Shown here: positions 21,667 through 30,629 of the stretch, in pieces
Layout of the letters: each line of letters opens with the position of its first letter
Numbering within the stretch: position 1 is the first letter of the stretch
Origin: an uncultured delta proteobacterium
GTDB taxonomy: Bacteria > Myxococcota_A > Polyangia > Polyangiales > Houyiibacteriaceae
Direction of reading: 5' to 3'
Assembly (NCBI GenBank): GCA_963704865.1
Contig: CAVPIE010000014.1
Span: 69,937 to 133,936, forward strand
DNA length: 64,000 bases
The notes under the pieces: generated by a model
Told to the model about the DNA's origin: nothing
Database searches by the model: none
What the model saw: only the letters and a program-made list of their open reading frames with translations
Program-made: the position numbers and the translations under genes

Positions 21667-23268
21667 ATGTCGAATGTTGTATCGAAGGAAGGGCCACGCA
21701 GCCCGTTCCCAGTTGCCGATTTGAAGGCAGGTTTCTTAGTTTTCCTGATCGCCCTTCCCCTCTCCCTGGGGATCGCGATGGCCAGTGGATTCCCCCCGAT
21801 CGCGGGCGTTCTGACCGCGATCATCGGAGGGGTCATCGTCACGTTTCTCGGTAGCGCACGCCTGACGATCAAGGGGCCCGCGGCCGGACTCATCGTCATC
21901 GCATTGGGGGCGGTACAAGAGCTTGGGGGAGGAGATCCGATGCTCGGCTACCGTCGAGCCCTAGCGGTCGGGACGGTCGCCGCAGGCGTGCAAATTGCGT
22001 TCGCCCTCCTTGGCGCCGCCTCGATCGGCGTAGCGATGTCTCCCTCTGTGGTCCACGGCATGTTGGCCGCCATCGGTGTGATCATCATCTCGAAGCAAGT
22101 GCACACCCTGTTGGGCGTAGCGCCGGAGGCCAAGGAACCATTGGAGTTGCTCGCCGAAATTCCGAAGAGCATCGCGCATGCCAATCCCGAGATACTGATC
22201 CTTGGTGCTCTCTCGCTACTCATCCTTTTTGGATGGCCTCTGATTCGGACGCGATGGGCAAAAGCCATCCCGGCTCCGGTGCTGGTCCTCGCGGTGGCAG
22301 TGCCACTGAGCTTGTGGCTCAATTTGGACCACTCGCACGCCTATCAGTTTCTATCGCACCAGTTCCACGTTGGGCCGGAGTTCCTGGTGCAACTACCGGG
22401 CTCGCTCCTCGACGCGTTCGTATTCCCGGATTTTTCGATGGTGTTCAGTGCCGCGTCCCTGAAATACGTAGTGATGTTCGCCCTGGTCGGAACGATCGAG
22501 TCGACCTTGAGCGTGCTCGCAGTCGACTCGATGGACCCGGAGAAGCGCCCGTCGAATCTGAATCGTGATCTCCTGGCTCTTTCTTTGGGGAACCTCTGTT
22601 CGTCTCTGGTCGGCGGGCTTCCGATGATTTCCGAGATCGTTCGAAGCAAAGCGAACGTCGATGCTGGCGCGCAGTCCCGATGGGCGAACTTTTTTCATGG
22701 CGCATTTCTGCTGACATTCGTCGCTCTGGCTCCCGGCTTGCTGCACGAAATTCCGCTCGCGGCCTTGGCGGCAATGCTGGTCTACACCGGCGCACGACTC
22801 GCATCACCCCGTGAGCTGTGGCACGTCAAACAGATCGGTCTGGATCAGCTCGCCCTCTTCGTCACTACACTCATCATCACTCTCGCGACCGACCTTCTAA
22901 TTGGCGTCGCAGCCGGCCTCGTGCTCAAGGTCATTTTGCACCGCGTCCGCGGGGCGACTTTCAGCCAGATCTTCCGTGCGCGCGTCGAGAAGAGTCAGCA
23001 AGGCTCCGAATTGCGCTTGACGCTGCACGGTGCAGCGGCTTTCACGAGCCTCATCTCGGTCAGGAAGTCCCTCGCGGATCTCGATCCTTCCTGCCGGAAA
23101 GTGGTGATCGATGTGAGCGACGCCGCGATCGTTGACCATACGTTCTTGAGTCGCCTCGAGGGTCTATCCAACGAGTGGCCGAATGTGGAATTGGAGGTGG
23201 TGGGGATCGAGGCACTGACGCCGCATTCGCCGCATCCGCACTCAACCCGTCGAAGGACCGCTTCATGA
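21667..23268 (+). CDS. SulP-family anion transporter with C-terminal STAS domain (sulfate/bicarbonate permease type)
   Basis: Typical SulP N-terminus (DLKAGFLVFLIALPLSLGIAMASGFPPIAGVLTAIIGG), about 10-12 TM helices, STAS-like tail (ELRLTLHGAAAFTSLISVRKSL..VVIDVSDAAIVDHTFL). The stop overlaps the dabA ATG. Confidence 0.9.
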   Translation: MSNVVSKEGPRSPFPVADLKAGFLVFLIALPLSLGIAMASGFPPIAGVLTAIIGGVIVTFLGSARLTIKGPAAGLIVIALGAVQELGGGDPMLGYRRALAVGTVAAGVQIAFALLGAASIGVAMSPSVVHGMLAAIGVIIISKQVHTLLGVAPEAKEPLELLAEIPKSIAHANPEILILGALSLLILFGWPLIRTRWAKAIPAPVLVLAVAVPLSLWLNLDHSHAYQFLSHQFHVGPEFLVQLPGSLLDAFVFPDFSMVFSAASLKYVVMFALVGTIESTLSVLAVDSMDPEKRPSNLNRDLLALSLGNLCSSLVGGLPMISEIVRSKANVDAGAQSRWANFFHGAFLLTFVALAPGLLHEIPLAALAAMLVYTGARLASPRELWHVKQIGLDQLALFVTTLIITLATDLLIGVAAGLVLKVILHRVRGATFSQIFRARVEKSQQGSELRLTLHGAAAFTSLISVRKSLADLDPSCRKVVIDVSDAAIVDHTFLSRLEGLSNEWPNVELEVVGIEALTPHSPHPHSTRRRTAS

Positions 23269-26246
23269 CCTCCGTTGCAAGCGAGTCTCTCAGCCTGTCC
23301 AGCTCGAAATCGACTGCGAACGCGACGCTTGGTGAGCTGCTCGACCACGCAGCGGACCTGCTTCCTCAGCAGTCTCCGCTGCATATGTTCGTTCATCACA
23401 ACACCTTGCATGCCTTTGAGCACCTTCACTTCGAAGAAGCCGTCGTCGAGGCCGCTGCGCGCTTCGGTACCGAGCCTTACCAGTCCGAAGCAGCCTTCGA
23501 CGAGTGCATCGAGTCGGCGAGAATTCGTTCGGCCGACATTGAAAACGTAGTCAACGCGTCCATCGAGGACTCAGGAGGCCCTGTGATAGCCGGAGGGCCG
23601 ACGCGACGGGAGATGCGGGCCATACGTCTGAGCAATCTCTTCGAGATCCCACAGGGTCCTGCGCTCAACTGGATGCTCGAAGAGACGGGGACGCTGTTTC
23701 GCTTCCACCGTCGCGTGCCGGAGTCGGCCCGGGCTGCGATCCTACAGTCCGCCGAGCGTGTCTCCCTCGGCGGGAACTCCAGCACGCCAGAGGCGCGTGA
23801 AGAGCAGGCCCTCGAGCAGATCTGGAGGGAGCTGCTCGCCGTCGCTCCGACCTCCCCCCGCGCCCGCACCGGCATCAGGCGGCGCGACCAGATCCTCGAA
23901 GTCTGCGGCATTGATACCGATCACTTCGTCCACCCCCTTCTGATTCGTGTCTGCGCCGCTTTCGTCGATCAGGGGATCGCGTATTGGGAGATGCCGGGAC
24001 GAGATGCGGGTTTGCTCGAAGTCTTCCGCTCTCTCTACGGAATCGGGTCGGGTCCTTCCGATCGCTGGATGGAAGGGCTTTCAAAGCAGCTGAGACTCCA
24101 GCAAAGCGAGCGATGGGACGCAGACCGGACGGTGCGCTGGGCACTGGAAGAGCTCGATGTCCCCCACGCGCAATGGGCTGGGTACATCGAAGAGACCCTG
24201 TTGTCGCTTCCAGGTTGGGCGGGCATGATTCGGCAGCTGGAGCTGCGTCCCGACACGGCGCCCGTCGACCCTCCCCGCGCCCGACTCCTCGACTACCTCG
24301 CGCTGCAGCTCAGCCTCGACCTGCACGCCGCTCGCTTCGTCATTCGAACACGGGCTGGTGGGCCGGACGCGTTCGCTGAGATGCTATCGCTTCGGACGGA
24401 CGCCAAACGAGAGAGCGACCTCGATCTCGAGCTCGTCTACGAAGGCTTCATCACGGCCCAGCTCGCCGGACTCGGGCCGGCGGAGCTTGGAGGACGGGAA
24501 GCAGCGAAGCGCTGGCTCGAAGAGGTCGGCGGATTCGATTCGAACGAACGGCGCCGGCTCTTGCACCTCGCGTATGAAAGAAGGCACCGCATCGGGGTGC
24601 TCGACGGAATCGTGGGTCACTGCCGATTCAAACGCAGGCAAGCGGCACAACCTCGCTTTCAAGCCGTATTCTGTATCGACGATCGCGAGGAGTCGCTTCG
24701 CAGGCACCTCGAAGAGATTCGGCCGGACGTCGAGACCTTCGGATACGCGGGCTTCTTTGGCATCGCGATGGCGTATCAGGGCATCGAGGACATTCGTCCG
24801 AGGCCGCTATGCCCTGTGGCCGTTCTCCCAAGCCACTACGTCAGGGAACGCGCCCTCGACGAGGGCGAAGCTGCCGTGTTTGCCGAGAAGCGTCGCAGAC
24901 GAGGACAAATGACTCACTCGATCGGACTCGGAAGCAGAATGCTGACCCGCGGCGGGGTCCTCTCTGCCTTGTTCGGATTCTTGGCGATCATCCCACTTCT
25001 TGGGAGGAGCCTGTTTCCTCGCGCCACGGAGCGTCTAGCGCACAGGATCTCGCACAGGACAGCACCCATGCCTCCGACGCGCTTGTGCCTCGAACGCGCT
25101 CCAGGCGAGCGACCCGACGGGCTCGCGTTGGGCTACACGATCGATGAAATGGCGGATGTCGTGTCCGGAGCACTTACGACGATGGGGATGGCGGGACAGT
25201 TGTCGTCGCTGGTCCTGATCGTCGGGCATGGCTCCTCGAGTCTCAACAACCCTCACGAAGCGGCACACGACTGCGGTGCGACGGGTGGGGGACGCGGGGG
25301 CCCCAACGCGCGTGCCTTCGCTGAGATGGCCAATGAACCACGGGTTCGAGAACGGCTTCGAAGCAGAGGACTCGTCATCCCTGATTCGACCTGGTTCGTC
25401 GGCGCATATCACAACACCTGCGACGACTCGATGACGTACTACGAAGAAGATCGGGTCCCGGCAGAGTCGCTGGAGGCGCTGGCGGACGCGAAGCGCGCGT
25501 TTGCAGACGCCTGCCGACTTGATGCGCACGAGCGCTGTCGCCGTTTCGAGTCAGCGCCCCTGGGTCTGGATCCCGAGGCAGCGCTGGCACACGCCGAGGC
25601 GCACGCCTACGATCTCGCGCAGCCAAGGCCCGAGTATGGGCATGCAACCAACGCCGTTTGCATCGTGGGCCGCCGAGCACGGACACGTGGGTTGTTTCTA
25701 GATCGGCGGGCCTTTCTCGTGTCGTATGATCCCGAGAGCGACTCGACCGGGGCGATTCTGGCTCAGCTCCTTCGCTCGGTTGGACCGGTCGGCGCCGGGA
25801 TCAACCTGGAATATTACTTCAGCTTCGTCGATCCCACGGGCTACGGTTGCGGGACCAAGCTTCCCCACAACATCGTCGGGCTCGTCGGTGTGATGGATGG
25901 GCACGCATCGGACTTGAGAACGGGTCTTCCTTGGCAAATGGTGGAGATCCACGAGCCGGTTCGGCTACTCACGATTGTCGAGGCGGAAACCGAGGAGTTG
26001 GTGCGCATTCTCGAACGCGACTCGGCACTTGCGAACTTGGTGAACAACGAGTGGATCCAACTGGTCGCTTGGGACCCAAGAAGCGACGCCTTGGCGGTCT
26101 ACGAGAATCGGCGATTTCAGCCGTATGTTCCGGAAAATCCCGCCATCGCCGTAGTTGGCCGTTCCGTCGACTTCTACTCCGGCCGGCGAGGGCATTTGAG
26201 CCCGGCCCACGTCAAGGCCGGGTTGCTCGAATACGGTGCGGCATGA
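23265..26246 (+). CDS. dabA: DabA (DUF2309/PF10070) beta-carbonic-anhydrase-like subunit of a DAB inorganic-carbon pump
   Basis: ORF trimmed to MTSVASES (ATG 23265, ATGA overlap with sulP). DUF2309 hallmark SPLHMFVHHNTLHAFE. CxDxR-type site FCIDDRE and GHGSSSLNNPHEAAHDCGATGG. Confidence 0.85.
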   Translation: MTSVASESLSLSSSKSTANATLGELLDHAADLLPQQSPLHMFVHHNTLHAFEHLHFEEAVVEAAARFGTEPYQSEAAFDECIESARIRSADIENVVNASIEDSGGPVIAGGPTRREMRAIRLSNLFEIPQGPALNWMLEETGTLFRFHRRVPESARAAILQSAERVSLGGNSSTPEAREEQALEQIWRELLAVAPTSPRARTGIRRRDQILEVCGIDTDHFVHPLLIRVCAAFVDQGIAYWEMPGRDAGLLEVFRSLYGIGSGPSDRWMEGLSKQLRLQQSERWDADRTVRWALEELDVPHAQWAGYIEETLLSLPGWAGMIRQLELRPDTAPVDPPRARLLDYLALQLSLDLHAARFVIRTRAGGPDAFAEMLSLRTDAKRESDLDLELVYEGFITAQLAGLGPAELGGREAAKRWLEEVGGFDSNERRRLLHLAYERRHRIGVLDGIVGHCRFKRRQAAQPRFQAVFCIDDREESLRRHLEEIRPDVETFGYAGFFGIAMAYQGIEDIRPRPLCPVAVLPSHYVRERALDEGEAAVFAEKRRRRGQMTHSIGLGSRMLTRGGVLSALFGFLAIIPLLGRSLFPRATERLAHRISHRTAPMPPTRLCLERAPGERPDGLALGYTIDEMADVVSGALTTMGMAGQLSSLVLIVGHGSSSLNNPHEAAHDCGATGGGRGGPNARAFAEMANEPRVRERLRSRGLVIPDSTWFVGAYHNTCDDSMTYYEEDRVPAESLEALADAKRAFADACRLDAHERCRRFESAPLGLDPEAALAHAEAHAYDLAQPRPEYGHATNAVCIVGRRARTRGLFLDRRAFLVSYDPESDSTGAILAQLLRSVGPVGAGINLEYYFSFVDPTGYGCGTKLPHNIVGLVGVMDGHASDLRTGLPWQMVEIHEPVRLLTIVEAETEELVRILERDSALANLVNNEWIQLVAWDPRSDALAVYENRRFQPYVPENPAIAVVGRSVDFYSGRRGHLSPAHVKAGLLEYGAA

Positions 26247-27610
26247 TGGAAACGCTTGTCGATGGCTTGGTGATTGGCATCGTAGGCTTTCCGGTGCTCG
26301 CCGTCTTCGTGCTCGGCTTGCGGGCCTGGCTCGATCGAGCGTGGAGCGAGCGAGCGACCGTCACGATCGTAGGTTTGGCGTTCAGCGCTTCCCTAGCCTC
26401 ATCTACGCTGACTGCGGGATGGCTTCTGCTGCGCGATTTCGCGGAAGTCCGCGTGCACTTGGGCAGCTGGTTCTCTGCCAAACACTATTCGTTCGATTGG
26501 AGTCTCGTCGCCGATCATCTGTCGATCCCGTTTGCAATCTTCTCGGCTGCTTTGCTCGGCCTGGTCGCGGCATTCTCGCGGAGGTATTTGCACCGCGAGC
26601 CGGGTTTCTCACGGTTCTACCTGCTGCTGACCATTTTTGGCGCTGCGGTCGAGTTCGTCGTCCTCGCGGGAAGCCTGGACTTGGCCTTTATCGGATGGGA
26701 GCTCGTCGGCCTGACGTCAGCTCTCTTGATCGCGTTCTTCCACGAGAGGCGCGCGCCGGTCGAGCACGGCCTCCGTGCCTTCGTCACCTATCGGCTCTGT
26801 GATATCGGTTTGCTCTCCGCCGCCGTTGCACTTCACCAGATGGTCGGTACCTCCGATGTCGTACCTTCCCCGACGGGTCCATGGGCGAGCTTCGTCGTTC
26901 CGGACACCGTGCTCGGGGCGACCGTGGTCGGCTTGCTCCTTCTCTGGGCGTCGATGGGCAAAGCGGCCCAAGTGCCCCTGTCGGGATGGCTGCCCCGTGC
27001 GATGGAAGGTCCCACTCCTTCGAGCGCCGTCTTTTATGGGGCGCTCTCCATTCATCTCGGGCCCTATCTCCTGCTTCGCGCCACATCGATTCTCGAGTTC
27101 TCCGGGGTCGCAGCGGGCTCGGTAGTCGCCGTGGGAGCGCTCACGGCGCTGCACGCGACGTTCGTGGGCCGCACGCAAAGCGACATCAAAAGCGCCCTCG
27201 CATACGCGTCGATGACCCAAGTTGGGCTGATCTACGTGGAGATCGGCCTTGGCTTCTACCACCTCGCCGTGGCCCATATCGTCGGCCATGCCGCCATTCG
27301 AACGCTCCAGATCCTCCGTTCGCCGAGTCTCCTTCACGACTACCATCATCTCGAACAAGCGATGGGAAAGCAGCTCCCCCGAACCGGCGGACATCTCGAA
27401 CGCCTAGTGCCGACGGCACTGCAGCCCTGGCTCTATCGCGTCGCTCTAGAGCGCGGGGGCTTCGACGCTTTTCTCAAAGACCACGTCATTGGGCGAGCGC
27501 TAGCCGTGCTCTCGTGGCTGGATCGACTGGACCGGGCCTGGGTTGACTATCTCACGAAACCAACACCGGCCAAGAAGTCACGTCAGCAGCGGGACGAGGT
27601 GACGTCATGA
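26243..27610 (+). CDS. dabB: DabB, NuoL/MrpA-like proton-conducting membrane subunit (PF00361)
   Basis: ORF trimmed to MMETLVDG (ATG 26243, ATGA overlap with dabA). GWELVGLTSALLIAFF and PLSGWLPRAMEGPTPSSAVFYGAL motifs of NuoL/MrpA-type subunits. Confidence 0.85.
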   Translation: MMETLVDGLVIGIVGFPVLAVFVLGLRAWLDRAWSERATVTIVGLAFSASLASSTLTAGWLLLRDFAEVRVHLGSWFSAKHYSFDWSLVADHLSIPFAIFSAALLGLVAAFSRRYLHREPGFSRFYLLLTIFGAAVEFVVLAGSLDLAFIGWELVGLTSALLIAFFHERRAPVEHGLRAFVTYRLCDIGLLSAAVALHQMVGTSDVVPSPTGPWASFVVPDTVLGATVVGLLLLWASMGKAAQVPLSGWLPRAMEGPTPSSAVFYGALSIHLGPYLLLRATSILEFSGVAAGSVVAVGALTALHATFVGRTQSDIKSALAYASMTQVGLIYVEIGLGFYHLAVAHIVGHAAIRTLQILRSPSLLHDYHHLEQAMGKQLPRTGGHLERLVPTALQPWLYRVALERGGFDAFLKDHVIGRALAVLSWLDRLDRAWVDYLTKPTPAKKSRQQRDEVTS

Positions 27611-28992
27611 CACTCGTATTTGCGGCTCTGCAACTCCTTCTTCTCCTCCCCATGGCCTGGTTCGTCGCGCGCTCGCCCTCGTCACGAACAGCCCGTCACC
27701 GCGCTAGCTACGCGATGGGTCTCACCGGCTTGCTTGCGCTCACCCACGTCAGCTGGCGCGTACTAGGAGCTCCCATGCTCGAGCGATCCGCCGACTGGGT
27801 CGCGATGGAGGACCCGCACTCCTGGGCTCCCGCATTCTCGTTGATTACCTGCCTGATCGGCTATGCCGCGATCGTCCTCAGTCCAATTCGTGGAACGCGT
27901 CCAAAGACATTCGCGAGGATTTTGCTTCTCATCGCGATCGCGTTGGTCTTCCTGGTCATTCGCCATCCGATCGGGCTTGCCGTCCTCTGGGGCGCTTCGG
28001 CGCTCATCGTGTGGCTCGAGTTACGAGAGATGCGACGAACTCGAAGTACGGCGAGGTTATTCGCCATTTATCATGTGCCGAGTGTCGTCGCGCTTGGAAT
28101 CGGCGCGGTGCTGCTCAGTCGAGGCGAGTCCACGGTTGGGCTCGTGTTTCTCCTCGCCGGCATCGGAATTCGCGAAGCCGTGATCCCGCTCCACAGTTGG
28201 TTCCCCCCGTTCGTGCAATACGCACCCATGGGACTCGTTGTGGCGTTCTTTGCACCACAACTGGGCGTCTATGCGCATCTCGAGTTGCTCCGAGGGGAGC
28301 TCCCGTCGCAACTTGCTCACGGGGTGGCGTCTCTCGGTGCGATCACTGCGGTGGTCGCCGCAGCTCTCGGCATTGCACAAACGGACGCGCGGCGCGCGCT
28401 CGCATTCTTGATAATGAGCCAGACAGGGCTCGTGGCCTTCGGCCTGGATACGAGCTCTCCCGTTGCCCAGATTGGCGCATTGCTCACATGGCAAGTGATA
28501 GGGGTGGCAACCGCCGGCTTCGCAATGACGCTCGCCTCTCTCGAAGCCCGGCGTGGGAATCTTTCGGTCAATGTCCCGGGCGGGAGTTTCACCCGAACGC
28601 CGCGCATGGCTGTCGCTTTTCTCTTCATGGGTTTTGCAAGTGTGGGCCTGCCGCTGACGCTCGGTTTCGTAGCCGAAGACCTCTTGGTTCAGGGATCGGT
28701 CGATGAGTTCCCACTACTTGCCTTTGCATTGATCGCCGCGACGGCGCTCAACGGGATCGCTGTGATGCGAGCGTTCTTCACGTTGTTCAGCGGATCTTCC
28801 AAGCACATTGGGGAACGTGACCTGACCAGACGTGAAGCAGCCGTACTGACGATGTTGATGGCCACGCTCCTCATCATGGGTCTGTTTCCGGGGCAGACCG
28901 TTCGGCGGCTCGAGCGCGTCACCGAGGGTGATGCCCAGCCCGTTACCGTCGTCCAGACGCTCGACGTCTCGCCCGACGCGCAACGGCCTTGA
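27607..28992 (+). CDS. second, divergent NuoM/N- or MrpD-like antiporter-type membrane subunit
   Basis: ATGA overlap with dabB. About 13 TM helices. Degenerate version of the PF00361 core (IPLHSWFPPFVQYAPMGLVVAFFAPQLG in place of ..LH.WLP.AMEGPTP..). Confidence 0.7.
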   Translation: MTLVFAALQLLLLLPMAWFVARSPSSRTARHRASYAMGLTGLLALTHVSWRVLGAPMLERSADWVAMEDPHSWAPAFSLITCLIGYAAIVLSPIRGTRPKTFARILLLIAIALVFLVIRHPIGLAVLWGASALIVWLELREMRRTRSTARLFAIYHVPSVVALGIGAVLLSRGESTVGLVFLLAGIGIREAVIPLHSWFPPFVQYAPMGLVVAFFAPQLGVYAHLELLRGELPSQLAHGVASLGAITAVVAAALGIAQTDARRALAFLIMSQTGLVAFGLDTSSPVAQIGALLTWQVIGVATAGFAMTLASLEARRGNLSVNVPGGSFTRTPRMAVAFLFMGFASVGLPLTLGFVAEDLLVQGSVDEFPLLAFALIAATALNGIAVMRAFFTLFSGSSKHIGERDLTRREAAVLTMLMATLLIMGLFPGQTVRRLERVTEGDAQPVTVVQTLDVSPDAQRP

Positions 28993-29860
28993 ACACGCGC
29001 TGAAACATCGCGGCGTCGCCGCTTGCCGGCTTGCGCTGGTCTTTTTTGTCACCCGACTCTGGGTAGAGCTGGTATGCGGCGTTCAGGATGCGATCGACGG
29101 CATTCGGCGCCACCCCATAGGCGAATTCGAATAGATTTCCGACAGGGGTGGCCACCCGTTTTGGCTGACGGACGATGCCGTCCGCCACTAGGTCGGCAGC
29201 TTCTTGGGCGCTCCGCATCGGAAACGAGTCGTAGATCGTCGTCGATTTCATCATCGGCGTCTTGACCAACGGCATGTAGATCGTCGTGACCTTGACCCCG
29301 TCCTTCAGCGCTTCGACTGCCAGGACTCGGCTAAATGCGTCGAGTGCCGCTTTGCTCGCGATGTAAGCGCCGTAGCGCGGAACGTTCACCTGGACCCCGA
29401 TCGTCGACACGTTGAGGATCTGCCCGCTCTTCTGTGCGCGCATACCCGGAAGAAATCCCATGATGAGACGCACCGCGCCCAAGAAATTGAGAGCGAGCGT
29501 CCGCTCGAAGTCGTGCACCCGATCGTAGGACTTGGCGACACTTCGGCGAATCGAAATTCCTGCATTGTTGACGAGGATGTCGACTTGGCCGTGGTCAGCA
29601 AGAATGGCGGCGATCAGACGCTCGGTGTCCTCGGCGTTCGATAAGTCGCCAGGATACGCGAATGCCGTTCCGCCGCGCCCCTCGATGCTCTTCTTCATAT
29701 CTTCGAGCTTGTCGGCGGATCGGGCGACGAGCAGGACCTTTGCCCCGGCGTCCCCCAATCGATTGGCCAGCGCTTCCCCAATCCCGCTCGAAGCGCCGGT
29801 GATCGCGACGGCACGGCCGGAAACCCGTTCGCGCAAGGCGCTATCTTCGGAGTCGGTCAC
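28943..29860 (-). CDS. short-chain dehydrogenase/reductase (SDR), classical family with C-terminal extension
   Basis: C-terminal 305 aa of ORF 28943..30376, with a GTG at 29860 (or a TTG at 29836). ITGASSGIGEAL, NNAG, YGAYIASKAAL (YxxxK). The 3' end overlaps the convergent 27607..28992 gene by 50 nt. Confidence 0.8.
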   Translation of the reverse strand: MTDSEDSALRERVSGRAVAITGASSGIGEALANRLGDAGAKVLLVARSADKLEDMKKSIEGRGGTAFAYPGDLSNAEDTERLIAAILADHGQVDILVNNAGISIRRSVAKSYDRVHDFERTLALNFLGAVRLIMGFLPGMRAQKSGQILNVSTIGVQVNVPRYGAYIASKAALDAFSRVLAVEALKDGVKVTTIYMPLVKTPMMKSTTIYDSFPMRSAQEAADLVADGIVRQPKRVATPVGNLFEFAYGVAPNAVDRILNAAYQLYPESGDKKDQRKPASGDAAMFQRVFKAVARRARRRASGRR

Positions 29861-30629
29861 CGGCGAAGCGTAGCCCAGTCGATGCGCTCTGCGGCGAAAA
29901 ACATTTGTTAATCGTCGATCTCGCGGCCATGCAGGCGTTGAATGTGTCGGGCGTTGTCGCCCTCGACGAGGTGAATGCGTTTGTCTGAGCCGGCCCGGCG
30001 TCGACGCTCTGCACATCCAAGCCCGGACCAAGCACGTCTTCGACAAACACCCCCTCGAGCTCTGCCGAACGGCCTTCCTCCGTCGGAATGGCATCGAGGA
30101 ACTCATCGATGAATTGATTCGACTTCCCCATCCGAAAGAGAAGTGCAACGACCAAGTAGTTGGGCGGATCATCGGCCGAAAGACCAGGACGTGAATGCAC
30201 CAAGTGCATCTCCATGGGATAGGTGATGCCGTCGACGAGATGCTCAGAAGGCGTGTGAAAATGAAGCTGCATGAACTCGTAGCTGTTGCCGTCGAACTCC
30301 GTCGTGGTGCCCGTGCGGAAGTCGAGCTGCACGGTGTGTCCGAGATTCTGTACCTGGTCTGCGCCATCTCCAGCATTGAGATGGATGGTGTGCCTCCCCT
30401 CTTCGGCCTCGCCGGAAAGGATGTTCACGGGGGACTGGAGTAGTCCATGCTCCAGGCCGGGAAGCGCGTAGTAGTGACCAGATGCCGACTCGCCGCCCGA
30501 GCCCTTGGACTTCTTCGCAGATACGACTGCCGCGTCGCATGGGGGACAAGACTTGGAAGCACAGCCCATGCCAGTCATGAAGACCATCAGCGTTCCGAGG
30601 GCGCTGCCGAGGACACTTCGTGAGCTCAT
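29841..30629 (-). CDS. alpha-carbonic anhydrase lipoprotein, with a possibly frameshifted or decayed 3' end
   Basis: Lipobox MTGMGC. Exact alpha-CA signature SEHLVDGITYPMEMHLV with the HFH..H zinc histidines. No GSLTTPPC/Thr199 loop downstream in this frame (see findings). Confidence 0.75.
   Translation of the reverse strand: MSSRSVLGSALGTLMVFMTGMGCASKSCPPCDAAVVSAKKSKGSGGESASGHYYALPGLEHGLLQSPVNILSGEAEEGRHTIHLNAGDGADQVQNLGHTVQLDFRTGTTTEFDGNSYEFMQLHFHTPSEHLVDGITYPMEMHLVHSRPGLSADDPPNYLVVALLFRMGKSNQFIDEFLDAIPTEEGRSAELEGVFVEDVLGPGLDVQSVDAGPAQTNAFTSSRATTPDTFNACMAARSTINKCFSPQSASTGLRFAGDRLRR

What the first reader, a model, noticed from the sequence alone, without database searches (positions are those of the whole stretch)
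27607..28992. Extra antiporter-like subunit with a degenerate PF00361 core downstream of dabB
Seen in sequence:
- The 461-aa product has about 13 hydrophobic helices and overall NuoM/N- or MrpD-like organisation.
- The most conserved segment reads IPLHSWFPPFVQYAPMGLVVAFF. The expected pattern, present in the neighbouring DabB, is ..H.WLP.AMEGPTP.S.
- The GWE motif of helix 5 is not evident.
- Its ATG overlaps the dabB stop.

Inference: it may be a specialised, possibly non-pumping or differently gated partner of DabB, analogous to MrpA/MrpD or NuoL/M/N pairing. I am not aware of such a partner being part of the described two-component DAB systems.
Basis: partly seen in the sequence, partly recalled or inferred. 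Interest (0 to 1): 0.6.

Follow-up and report, generated by a model that had tools for sequence, protein, structure and literature searches.

The report
NuoM-like third subunit of DAB pump
The gene encodes a full-size but partly disabled complex-I NuoM-type membrane protein that is always encoded behind dabA and a shortened dabB in many bacterial phyla, so it is very probably the dedicated third subunit of a little-studied class of membrane-energised CO2-hydrating (DAB) pumps.

Summary
Bases 27607-28992 encode a 461-aa protein with 14 transmembrane helices (TM), here called X. Its ATG overlaps the dabB stop (ATGA).

X has a confident NuoM/ND4/NdhD fold. Three canonical channel residues are lost, and the substitutions are conserved across its family:
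- TM5 Glu is replaced by Gly/Ala.
- TM7 Lys is replaced by Arg (88/89).
- TM8 Lys is replaced by Gln.
- The TM12 acidic pair (E357/D358) is kept.

X is not a stray nuo or mrp gene. The genome has complete sets of those elsewhere.
- In 401 Myxococcota genomes, 41 of 42 X homologs lie just downstream of dabA.
- In 68 "long-DabA" loci from at least six phyla, 66 read dabA-dabB-X, often with sulP.
- X and DabB trees are congruent, and one in-frame DabB-X fusion exists.
- Some homologs carry C-terminal alpha- or beta-carbonic-anhydrase domains.

The partner DabB is cut back to 11 TM. It keeps the NuoL-type TM5 Glu gating ion pairs, which two-gene DabB lacks (45/45 versus 0/20).

Most likely X sits where NuoM sits beside NuoL, the position of DabC in DAB1. 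There it would gate or feed DabB through its TM12 acids rather than pump by itself.

The neighbourhood was already noted in 2017 (COGNAT "clade C"), and a third subunit, DabC, is known. I rate this a new variant of a known kind, of moderate interest.

The parts
21667..23268 (+). sulP: a SulP-family anion transporter (533 aa) and the first gene of the operon. It is a frequent but not obligate companion of this DAB class.
   Evidence: PF00916 at 182 bits, with weak BicA/DauA similarity. SulP lies within +/-8 kb in 32 of 80 related loci, either upstream, downstream of X, or on the opposite strand.
23265..26246 (+). dabA: the 'long' form (993 aa) of the beta-carbonic-anhydrase-like cytoplasmic subunit.
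   Evidence: PF10070 at 810 bits. It matches DabA2 of PDB 9rd0 with E 4e-70. It is the only dabA in the genome. An ATGA overlap with sulP lies at 23265-23268.
26243..27610 (+). dabB: a shortened NuoL-like subunit (455 aa) with 11 TM helices and C-terminal amphipathic helices. It keeps the NuoL-type residues E153, R184, D187 and K240.
   Evidence: PF00662 and PF00361 hits, and NuoL profile positions 5-362. AlphaFold2 gives pLDDT 89.6. The ATGA overlap with dabA is shown.
26699..26701 (+). Codon of DabB Glu153, the TM5 Glu equivalent to NuoL E144. It is retained in this class and absent from two-gene DabB.
   Evidence: Glu is present in 41/41 DabB of this class plus 4/4 with a reduced third subunit, against 0/20 in dabB-dabA two-gene loci. 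In DabB2 this position is Ile151, and re-introducing Glu halves activity (paper).
27607..28992 (+). X, the finding itself: a 461-aa, 14-TM NuoM-derived third membrane subunit.
   Evidence: AlphaFold2 gives pLDDT 92.9 and pTM 0.92. Foldseek top hits are NuoM/ND4/NdhD with TM-score about 0.82. The family profile aligns end to end with NuoM chains in the PDB. The X clade has 99* support and is separate from genuine NuoM.
27991..27993 (+). Codon of G129, at the position of the NuoM TM5 Glu (E. coli E144). The Glu is lost.
   Evidence: The position is non-acidic in 47 of 48 members of the broad X clade.
28171..28173 (+). Codon of R189, at the position of the NuoM TM7 Lys (E. coli K234). This Arg is the family hallmark.
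   Evidence: Arg in 88/89 family members and in 45/48 of the broad clade.
28675..28680 (+). Codons of E357-D358 on the broken helix TM12, at the position of NuoM E407. The acidic pair is retained.
   Evidence: E in 57/89 at position 357 and D/E in 87/89 at position 358. Both are invariant in the reduced, Pfam-less sister family.
29025..29050 (+). Terminator-like hairpin followed by a T-run, 33 nt after the stop codon of X. It is a possible operon end.
   Evidence: The number of such sites in the scanned region is not above chance, so this is weak evidence.
29841..30629 (-). Alpha-carbonic-anhydrase lipoprotein ORF and the only alpha-CA gene in the genome. It is related to the CA domain fused to X in relatives. 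Its C-terminal third is missing or decayed.
   Evidence: PF00194 at 67 bits, covering model positions 15-177 of 254. It is 38-40% identical to the CA domains of P0019 and P0020. It is the single alpha-CA hit in the genome.

Best explanation
X is the dedicated third membrane subunit of a distinct, widespread class of DAB pumps. These are membrane-energised, vectorial CO2-hydrating complexes, encoded here as [sulP]-dabA(long)-dabB(short, 11 TM)-X.

Shown:
- X has the full 14-TM NuoM fold.
- X forms its own clade next to genuine NuoM.
- X is co-inherited and co-diversified with its DabA and DabB.
- X is fused in-frame to DabB in at least one genome.

Inferred from the architecture of complex I, and from the DAB1 structure in which DabC occupies the NuoM position:
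- X docks on the TM4-8 face of DabB, as NuoM docks on NuoL.
- X's own N-terminal half-channel is inactive: there is no TM5 Glu, TM7 Lys is a fixed Arg, and TM8 Lys is Gln. X is therefore not an independent pump.
- The C-terminal half (TM7-14) faces DabB and is strongly conserved. It keeps the TM12 acidic pair E357/D358.
- In complex I the equivalent residue (NuoM E407) talks to the TM5-Glu/TM7-Lys ion pairs of NuoL. DabB of this class keeps exactly those residues (E153, R184, D187, K240), and two-gene DabB has lost the Glu.

I therefore propose that X gates, or relays protons to, DabB's lateral proton path through E357/D358. That would couple proton-motive force to the conformational cycle of DabA. 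In short, X would be a still-communicating version of the vestigial DabC.

The periplasmic C-terminus of X can also carry or recruit a carbonic anhydrase. This host has no RuBisCO, so the system most likely supplies bicarbonate for carboxylases.
For: Fold:
- AlphaFold2 gives pLDDT 92.9 and 14 TM helices, with broken TM7 and TM12.
- Foldseek top hits are NuoM/ND4/NdhD, including NdhD3 of the CO2-uptake complex NDH-1MS (6tjv_D), at TM-score 0.82.
- The family profile aligns to NuoM chains over positions 4-445.

Residues:
- The family-wide substitutions are tabulated.

Linkage:
- All seven metagenome contexts of homologs down to 32% identity have DabA and/or DabB directly upstream.
- 41 of 42 homologs in 401 Myxococcota genomes lie 1.4-3.4 kb downstream of dabA.
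- 66 of 68 long-DabA loci carry DabB and X. They come from Myxococcota, Planctomycetota, Acidobacteriota, Verrucomicrobiota, Armatimonadota and others.
- None of 20 two-gene dabB-dabA loci has X.
- Roseiconus has only three PF00361 genes, two of which are this DabB-X pair.

Partnership:
- X and DabB trees are congruent, and both clades are well supported.
- There is an in-frame DabB-X fusion of 1070 aa in L009.
- A DabB with a ~190-aa X-like tail occurs in L152.

Functional hot-spot:
- A Pfam-less sister family of ~385 aa sits in the same operon slot. It keeps only TM10-14 of X, with 'GFVAEDLL' invariant. hhalign gives Prob 98.4 and E 4e-15.

DabB:
- It has 11 TM helices.
- E153, R184, D187 and K240 are invariant.
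- Glu is present in 45/45 of this class against 0/20 of two-gene DabB. This matches Ile151 in DabB2 (paper).

Link to inorganic carbon:
- Alpha-CA fusions occur in P0019, P0020 and P0025, and a beta-CA fusion in P0157 lies inside a sulP-dabA-dabB-X operon.
- The genome's only alpha-CA gene lies about 850 bp from X.

Expression:
- Estuary metatranscriptome contigs cover sulP through X at 90-99% identity.

Literature:
- DabC aligns with the NuoL-proximal helices of NuoM and is essential.
Against: - No physical or functional datum exists for any member of this class. The docking geometry, and the proximity of X E357/D358 to DabB E153, are inferred by homology and were not modelled. No multimer prediction or model coordinates were available.
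- The perfect DabB-Glu versus X co-occurrence separates two clades. It may reflect a single evolutionary event rather than repeated co-variation.
- Position 357 is not invariant (E 57/89, with Q, A and others). In Planctomycetota only the following D/E is kept.
- TM8 is hydrophobic in some lineages.
- DabC, the only characterised analogue, has hydrophobic channel positions and no water chain, which argues for a purely structural role.
- Carbonic-anhydrase fusions are rare. There are none among the 80 genome loci, and the 8 nearest Myxococcota genomes checked (6 same genus, 1 same family, 1 same order) have no CA domain near X.
- Metatranscriptome contigs can contain DNA.
Confidence: 0.68

Rival explanations
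1. X is a purely structural or assembly scaffold, like DabC. It stabilises the shortened DabB and the DabA interface but takes no part in proton sensing or transfer. Its conserved polar residues serve folding and packing only.
For: - DabC in DAB1 is essential, yet has hydrophobic channel positions and no water chain.
- X has lost the TM5 Glu, TM7 Lys and TM8 Lys.
- The N-terminal third is poorly conserved.
- Reduced and fused forms show that much of X is dispensable.
Against: - The TM12 acidic pair is nearly invariant in X. It is strictly invariant in the reduced family even after everything N-terminal to TM10 has diverged.
- TM7 Arg is kept in 88/89 members.
- DabB of this class retains the inter-subunit gating Glu that partner-less DabB has lost. 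This is hard to explain if the neighbour is electrostatically silent.
Confidence: 0.2
2. X is a fully active second ion-translocating subunit (H+ or Na+). It would raise the ion/CO2 stoichiometry, as the 2017 COGNAT paper suggested for operons with several membrane subunits.
For: - X has the full 14-TM fold with both broken helices.
- The TM12 Glu is retained.
- One related locus (L023) carries an X paralog with all four canonical residues, E/K/K/E.
- The COGNAT paper proposes this idea.
Against: - Three of the four canonical residues are replaced family-wide.
- The TM5 Glu is absent in 47/48 members.
- TM7 Lys is replaced by a non-titratable Arg.
- The connecting His residues are replaced by Gln or hydrophobic residues.
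Confidence: 0.07
3. X mainly serves substrate handling. It would form a CO2 or HCO3- path, or a docking platform for a periplasmic carbonic anhydrase and SulP, so that external bicarbonate is dehydrated, enters as CO2 and is trapped by DabA.
For: - C-terminal alpha-CA and beta-CA fusions to X occur.
- The predicted periplasmic C-terminus follows from 14 TM helices with a positive-inside first loop.
- An alpha-CA lipoprotein gene lies next to the operon.
- sulP is frequently linked.
- CO2 channels through NdhF3 are proposed for NDH-1MS (paper).
Against: - CA fusions and CA neighbours are rare.
- No conserved hydrophobic or anion-binding tunnel could be examined.
- The residues conserved in X are those of the proton-path positions.
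Confidence: 0.05

Closest known systems
DabC of DAB1 (Halothiobacillus neapolitanus Hneap_0908; Thermocrinis albus, fused to DabB). Phillips et al., bioRxiv 10.64898/2026.05.01.722082 / PNAS PMC13684180.
   Same: - It is a third membrane subunit of a DAB complex with a long DabA (DabA1 is 1046 aa; 993 aa here).
- It occupies the NuoM position beside the NuoL-like DabB.
- It has lost canonical proton-path residues.
- It can be fused to the C-terminus of DabB, compared here with L009 and L152.
   Different: [quoted passage not shown]
- X is full length (14 TM) and is detected by PF00361. It keeps TM7 Arg and the TM12 Glu/Asp pair.
- The gene order differs. In H. neapolitanus it is dabA-dabC-dabB.
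- DabB1 is 559 aa, against 455 aa here.
- Direct sequence homology between X and DabC was not tested, because no usable DabC sequence was available.
COGNAT 'clade C' operons: ybcC (COG3002) upstream of a nuoL homolog, with COG1008 (NuoM) and COG0659 (SulP). Klimchuk et al. 2017, PMC5700660.
   Same: This is the same gene neighbourhood. It is the earlier published sighting of this operon class.
   Different: It was described only as a neighbourhood pattern, before DabA was known to be a carbonic anhydrase. The paper gives no residue, fold, fusion or distribution analysis. It proposed an outward ion pump driven by an unknown exergonic reaction.
DAB2 / MpsAB two-component complexes (DabA2-DabB2, PDB 9rd0; S. 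aureus MpsAB; B. subtilis NdhF-YbcC).
   Same: They share the catalytic DabA (PF10070) and a NuoL-like DabB with TM1-11 as the proton half-channel.
   Different: - They have two genes, in the order dabB-dabA in the Myxococcota examples.
- DabB is 530-560 aa with extra helices TM12-15.
- The TM5 Glu is replaced (Ile151).
- There is no third subunit.
NdhD3/NdhF3/CupA module of cyanobacterial NDH-1MS (PDB 6tjv).
   Same: It pairs a NuoM-type subunit (NdhD3) with a NuoL-type subunit (NdhF3) and a CO2-hydrating cytoplasmic protein. 6tjv_D is among the best fold and sequence matches of X.
   Different: The NdhD3/F3 module is attached to a redox-driven NDH-1 core and keeps the canonical charged residues. 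CupA is unrelated to DabA. No nuo or ndh core genes lie beside X.
NuoM / ND4 of respiratory complex I, and MrpD.
   Same: They share the fold, the 14 TM helices, the broken TM7 and TM12, the TM12 Glu and the NuoM-type 'H.W.P....AP' motif. X is the sister clade of genuine NuoM in the tree.
   Different: X lacks the TM5 Glu, TM7 Lys, TM8 Lys and the connecting His residues. It scores 100 bits against the 264-bit cut-off of TIGR01972. It is not in a nuo or mrp operon.

Membership tests
PF00361 antiporter-like superfamily (NuoL/M/N, MrpA/D) | Pfam gathering score reached | tested here: met
   68.5 bits against a cut-off of 21.5, but only model positions 74-286 are matched.
PF00361 antiporter-like superfamily (NuoL/M/N, MrpA/D) | 14-TM fold with two inverted repeats and discontinuous helices TM7 and TM12 | tested here: met
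   The AlphaFold2 model has pLDDT 92.9, with breaks at 190-198 and 345-351. Foldseek gives TM-score 0.8 to NuoM/ND4/NdhD/MrpD.
Genuine NuoM (complex I subunit M) | Score above the curated NuoM model cut-offs | tested here: not met
   TIGR01972 scores 100.5 against 263.8, and NF004500 scores 93 against 550.
Genuine NuoM (complex I subunit M) | Canonical charged residues: TM5 Glu, TM7 Lys, TM8 Lys, TM12 Glu | tested here: not met
   X has G129, R189, Q218 and E357. Only the TM12 Glu is kept, and this holds family-wide.
Genuine NuoM (complex I subunit M) | Encoded within a nuo (or mrp) operon | tested here: not met
   X follows dabA-dabB. Intact nuoL/M/N lie on contig C19 and a separate three-gene Mrp-like set lies at C14:1787-5552. 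In the tree X is a separate clade from NuoM.
DAB complex, third membrane subunit (operational class) | Conserved, same-strand adjacency to dabA (PF10070) and dabB across distant taxa | tested here: met
   41/42 homologs in Myxococcota. 66/68 long-DabA loci from at least six phyla. Start/stop overlaps in the window.
DAB complex, third membrane subunit (operational class) | Co-evolution or fusion with the partner subunit | tested here: met
   The X and DabB subtrees are congruent. L009 has an in-frame DabB-X fusion. L152 has a DabB with an X-like tail.
DAB complex, third membrane subunit (operational class) | Physical presence in the purified complex and requirement for Ci uptake | not testable with these tools
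   This needs co-purification or cryo-EM, and complementation of a carbonic-anhydrase-free E. coli with and without X.
DabC (DAB1) | Small protein (about half of NuoM) with no Pfam domain | tested here: not met
   X is 461 aa with a PF00361 hit. A related Pfam-less family of ~385 aa does exist in the same operon slot.
DabC (DAB1) | Proton-path positions hydrophobic | tested here: inconclusive
   The TM5 position is Gly/Ala and the TM11 His position is Ile/Val. However, TM7 is Arg, TM8 is Gln and TM12 is Glu-Asp.
DabC (DAB1) | Sequence or structural homology to T. albus / H. neapolitanus DabC | not tested
   No DAB1 chain was found in the PDB copy. The only available sequence, a machine-read supplement, was too corrupted to use.
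NdhD3/NdhD4 of cyanobacterial CO2-uptake NDH-1 | Association with an NDH-1 core and a CupA/CupB protein | tested here: not met
   No ndh or nuo core genes, and no Cup gene, lie beside X. The partner is DabA.

The most novel reading that the evidence does not exclude
The dabA-dabB-X operons are the least reduced, near-ancestral form of all DAB machines. In this reading a NuoL-NuoM (complex I/Mrp-type) pair captured a beta-carbonic anhydrase.

X would still communicate electrostatically with DabB, through the TM12 Glu/Asp of X and the TM5 Glu ion pair of DabB. It would act as the gate that makes CO2 hydration vectorial.

Three other forms would then be successive reductions of X:
- the Pfam-less ~385-aa proteins,
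- the X-like tails fused to DabB,
- DabC of DAB1.

The two-gene DAB2/MpsAB type would have lost both the partner and the gating Glu. In some lineages X would additionally tether a periplasmic carbonic anhydrase, forming a bicarbonate-to-CO2-to-bicarbonate relay together with SulP.
Probability: 0.3. Interest if true: 0.7.

Novelty: new variant of a known kind. Interest (0 to 1): 0.55.

Why it matters
DAB complexes are the main CO2-uptake machines of non-cyanobacterial autotrophs, and many heterotrophs and pathogens have them too. Their first structures (DAB1 and DAB2) appeared only in 2026, and how proton flow is coupled to one-way CO2 hydration is still open.

This class is common in Planctomycetota (including anammox Kuenenia), Myxococcota (including Sorangium cellulosum So ce56), Acidobacteriota and Verrucomicrobiota. 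It offers a natural contrast to the studied systems:
- It keeps a full NuoM-type neighbour with a conserved TM12 acid pair.
- Its DabB keeps the complex-I gating Glu, which DAB2 replaced by Ile and tolerates poorly when it is restored.

This makes three questions directly testable by a handful of point mutants in an E. coli complementation assay:
- whether the third subunit gates DabB,
- what DabC is a remnant of,
- how DABs descend from complex-I/Mrp modules.

It also flags thousands of genes now annotated 'NADH-quinone oxidoreductase subunit M' or 'hypothetical protein' that belong to an inorganic-carbon system.

Tried and rejected
1. Direct comparison with DabC.
- The PDB copy holds DabA2 (9rd0) but no DAB1 chain.
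- The T. albus DabB-DabC insert printed in the DAB1 preprint's Supplementary Table 5 is machine-read and too corrupted: 2224 of 2317 nt were recovered. It has 22-35 stops in each forward frame, and even DabB gives no tblastn hit. I abandoned this route.

2. Half-size homologs. The ~260-330-aa hits in the representative search looked like natural half-size forms. The two whose contigs were checked (P0203, P0204) start at the edge of ~1.5-kb contigs and still hit PF00361. They are truncated gene calls.

3. C-terminal extensions of long homologs. P0160, P0167, P0173, P0190, P0195 and P0223 have low-complexity, Arg/His/Asp-rich tails without Pfam hits. These are probably read-through or gene-call artefacts, not domains. 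Only the alpha-CA and beta-CA fusions are credible.

4. CA fusion within the window's own genus. The 8 nearest Myxococcota genomes checked (6 same genus, 1 same family, 1 same order) have no CA domain near X.

5. The ORF downstream of DabB in L155 shows no similarity to X.

6. 'Fragmented nuo/mrp operon' is rejected.

7. The sigma-70 promoter scan found nothing. Terminator-like sites are not above chance.

8. A model of the DabB-X interface could not be made. Only single-chain prediction is offered and no coordinates are returned.


Full report
**1. What is there**

The + strand of the window carries four translationally coupled genes:
- sulP, 21667-23268 (PF00916).
- dabA, 23265-26246 (PF10070, 810 bits, 993 aa).
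- dabB, 26243-27610 (PF00662 + PF00361, 455 aa).
- The finding itself, 27607-28992 (461 aa), called X here.

All three junctions are ATGA start/stop overlaps. X ends 50 nt inside the 3' end of a convergent SDR gene. A terminator-like hairpin follows at 29025, but such sites are not above chance in this region.

X hits PF00361 with only 68.5 bits, over model positions 74-286. NuoM equivalog models score far below their cut-offs, for example TIGR01972 at 100 bits against 264.
- The protein has 14 TM helices, not about 13.
- Its 'HSWFPPFVQYAP' segment fits the NuoM-type motif.
- DabB itself reads PLSGWLP, not ..H.WLP.

**2. Fold and residues**

- With an 89-sequence family alignment (A1), AlphaFold2 gives pLDDT 92.9 and pTM 0.92. 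The model has 14 TM helices, and both discontinuous helices are present: TM7 at 175-189/199-205 and TM12 at 332-344/352-367.
- Foldseek's best PDB matches are NuoM/ND4/NdhD chains at TM-score about 0.82. They include NdhD3 of the cyanobacterial CO2-uptake complex NDH-1MS.
- The family profile aligns end to end with NuoM chains, positions 4-445 against 6-509.

Mapping the canonical NuoM residues onto X gives the following.

| NuoM position | Residue in X | Across the family |
|---|---|---|
| TM5 Glu (E. coli E144) | G129 | non-acidic in 47/48 of the broad clade |
| TM7 Lys (K234) | R189 | Arg in 88/89 |
| TM8 Lys (K265) | Q218 | Gln in 74/89; His or hydrophobic in some phyla |
| TM10 His | Q272 | - |
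| TM11 His | hydrophobic | - |
| TM12 Glu (E407) | E357, followed by D358 | acid at 358 in 87/89 |

Conservation is lopsided. Only 6 of 58 positions that are at least 80% conserved lie in residues 1-171, which span TM1-6.

By the positive-inside rule, the loop after TM1 (RSPSSRTARHR) is cytoplasmic. With 14 TM helices both termini are then periplasmic, as in NuoM. This is an inference.

**3. X is not a stray nuo or mrp gene**

- The 98.9%-complete genome has eight PF00361 genes. They are a nuoL/M/N set on contig C19, a separate three-gene Mrp-like set at C14:1787-5552, and dabB and X.
- In a maximum-likelihood tree of 121 antiporter-like proteins, X sequences form a supported clade (99*). It is sister to, but separate from, genuine NuoM.
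- The partner DabB sequences form their own clade (100*) next to two-gene DabB and NuoL.
- The internal branching of the X and DabB clades matches group by group.

**4. Linkage to DAB**

- All seven metagenome contexts of homologs down to 32% identity show DabA and/or DabB directly upstream.
- In 401 Myxococcota genomes, 42 have an X homolog at E <= 1e-55. Of these, 41 lie 1.4-3.4 kb downstream of a dabA on the same strand. The 42nd is on a fragmented assembly.
- Two dabA types exist.
  - The short type (about 810-860 aa) has the gene order dabB-dabA and never has X. This holds in 20 of 20 loci.
  - The long type (about 950-1050 aa) has the order dabA-dabB-X.
- A scan of 185,579 species genomes with a DabA alignment returned the 80 best loci, all of the long type. 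They come from Myxococcota (including Sorangium cellulosum So ce56), Planctomycetota (Kuenenia, Gemmata, Pirellulales), Acidobacteriota, Verrucomicrobiota, Armatimonadota and others. Of 68 loci with at least 3 kb downstream, 66 carry DabB and X.
- sulP lies nearby in 32 of the 80 loci. It can be upstream, downstream of X, or on the opposite strand.
- Roseiconus has only three PF00361 genes. Two of them are this pair and the third is a two-gene-type DabB.
- Estuary metatranscriptome contigs cover sulP through X at 90-99% identity. This is weak evidence of expression.

**5. The partner DabB is special too**

- AlphaFold2 (pLDDT 89.6) gives 11 TM helices and then amphipathic helices, including a 32-residue helix at 407-438. 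The TM12-15 helices described for DabB2 are missing.
- All 41 DabB of this class keep the NuoL-type TM5 Glu (E153), the R184/D187 pair and the TM7 Lys (K240). They have Tyr at the TM8 His position and Arg at the TM11 Lys position.
- Two-gene DabB never has the TM5 Glu: 0 of 20 do, and V/M/L/T/I/S/F/G occur instead. This agrees with the DAB2 structure paper, where the position is Ile151 and re-introducing Glu halves activity.
- In complex I this Glu belongs to the ion pairs at the subunit interface. Those pairs respond to the TM12 residue of the preceding subunit (established knowledge, summarised).
- The Glu therefore survives exactly where a NuoM-like neighbour with a conserved TM12 acid is present. 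The caveat is that this splits two clades, so it may be a single evolutionary event.

**6. Fusions and reduced forms**

- L009 encodes DabB and a full-length X in one 1070-aa open frame.
- L152 encodes a DabB with a ~190-aa tail that matches X TM12-13, including 'WGEDLIV' (hhalign E 2.4e-7).
- In other Myxococcota the slot after dabA-dabB holds a 380-394-aa membrane protein with no Pfam hit.
  - This family has more than 120 clusters.
  - Profile-profile comparison with X gives Prob 98.4% and E 4e-15. The match covers X 274-447 only (TM10-14), with 'LPGTxGFVAEDLL' invariant.
- At the other extreme, L023 has dabA-dabB followed by two X paralogs. One of them keeps all four canonical residues.
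- The third subunit thus spans a series from canonical to vestigial. The part that always survives is the DabB-facing C-terminal half with its TM12 acid pair.

**7. Link to inorganic carbon beyond DabA**

- Three homolog clusters (P0019, P0020, P0025; 71-75% identical to X) carry a C-terminal alpha-carbonic-anhydrase domain with no extra TM helix in between. It is therefore predicted to be periplasmic.
- P0157 carries a beta-CA domain and sits in a sulP-dabA-dabB-X operon.
- In the window, the genome's only alpha-CA gene is a lipoprotein ORF at 29841-30629 (-). It lies about 850 bp from X and is 38-40% identical to those fused domains. Its C-terminal third is missing.
- Such associations are rare elsewhere.
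- The genome has no RuBisCO and has two beta-CAs. The system most likely supplies bicarbonate for carboxylases in a heterotroph, as has been proposed for DABs of heterotrophs.

**8. Comparison with what is known**

- DAB2/MpsAB are two-subunit complexes.
- DAB1 has a third subunit, DabC. It is small, essential and has no Pfam match. It aligns structurally with the NuoM helices next to NuoL, its channel positions are hydrophobic, and in Thermocrinis it is fused to DabB.
- X is the full-size, still partly polar counterpart in a different operon layout.
- The neighbourhood itself was reported in 2017 as 'clade C' of ybcC operons: ybcC upstream of nuoL, plus NuoM and SulP. That was before DabA's function was known and included no analysis of the NuoM-like protein.
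- I found no DAB paper that treats this class.
- Notes by other agents of this scan describe the same class in other genomes. They are leads, not evidence.

**9. Mechanism**

Shown:
- X has the NuoM fold.
- X is a dedicated, co-evolving and occasionally fused partner of DabB in DabA operons.
- X has a family-specific residue pattern.

Inferred:
- X docks on DabB as NuoM docks on NuoL.
- Its N-terminal half-channel is dead.
- Its TM12 Glu/Asp communicates with the retained E153/R184/K240/D187 network of DabB and gates, or feeds, the proton path that drives DabA.

I give about 0.85 to 'dedicated third subunit of a DAB complex' and about 0.5 to the gating detail. The rivals are listed separately: a pure scaffold, a full second pump, and a substrate or CA platform.

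**10. Verdict**

I rate the finding a new variant of a known kind and of moderate interest. It gives the DAB field a natural, widespread, full-length version of the enigmatic third subunit and a testable hypothesis for inter-subunit gating.

Noticed in passing
window 29841-30629 (-): This alpha-carbonic-anhydrase lipoprotein ORF is the only alpha-CA in the genome. It matches Pfam positions 15-177 of 254 only. The C-terminal third, including the 'YRGSLTxPP' region seen in the fused homologs, is missing. It may be a decayed gene or an assembly error.
   Followed up: partly
L023 (G050:C4:88000-100000), minus strand: The locus reads [antiporter-like gene]-dabA-dabB-X-X'. One X paralog keeps all canonical residues (FWE, K, K, GE). 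The other is degenerate. This is a larger membrane arm than in the window.
   Followed up: partly
L009 2847-6056 (-) (G205): A single 1070-aa open frame holds DabB (aa 67-440) and a full-length X (aa 594-1062). The linker between them contains extra hydrophobic segments. This is a natural DabB-X fusion.
   Followed up: partly
L153, L154, L164, L165; alignment A4: A family of more than 120 clusters of 375-410-aa 'hypothetical' membrane proteins, with no Pfam domain, always follows dabA-dabB. Only the C-terminal ~150 residues resemble X, with GFVAEDLL invariant. This is probably an intermediate between X and DabC.
   Followed up: yes
window 26243-27610 (dabB): DabB of this class has only 11 TM helices. 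It carries invariant Tyr at the NuoL TM8 His position and Arg at the TM11 Lys position. It ends in a long amphipathic helix (residues 407-438) that could act like the lateral helix HL of NuoL.
   Followed up: partly
L005 7030-9129 (P0157): An X homolog is fused to a beta-class carbonic-anhydrase domain (PF00484), with no extra TM helix in the linker. By topology the domain would be periplasmic, which is unusual for beta-CAs.
   Followed up: no
G401 (Sorangium cellulosum So ce56) C1:12210493-12212744 and 6734384-6736611: So ce56 appears to have two DabB-X pairs. Its X proteins match PF00361 over the whole model (about 120 bits), so they are less degenerate in the N-terminal half than the window's X.
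   Followed up: no
L057 (Kuenenia), L104 (Gemmataceae), L069: In these loci X, and in L104 also dabA, is split into two or three open frames. This indicates frameshifts, pseudogenes or assembly errors in some members.
   Followed up: no
L063 (uncultured 'Spirochaetaceae' MAG): dabA stands alone. dabB-X lie about 4.4 kb away on the opposite strand, so this is a rearranged version of the operon.
   Followed up: no
Record titles of L030, L058, L063 and P0267: Several loci and proteins of clearly myxobacterial or planctomycete type carry NCBI titles such as Spirochaetaceae or Akkermansia muciniphila. These MAG taxonomic labels are probably wrong.
   Followed up: no
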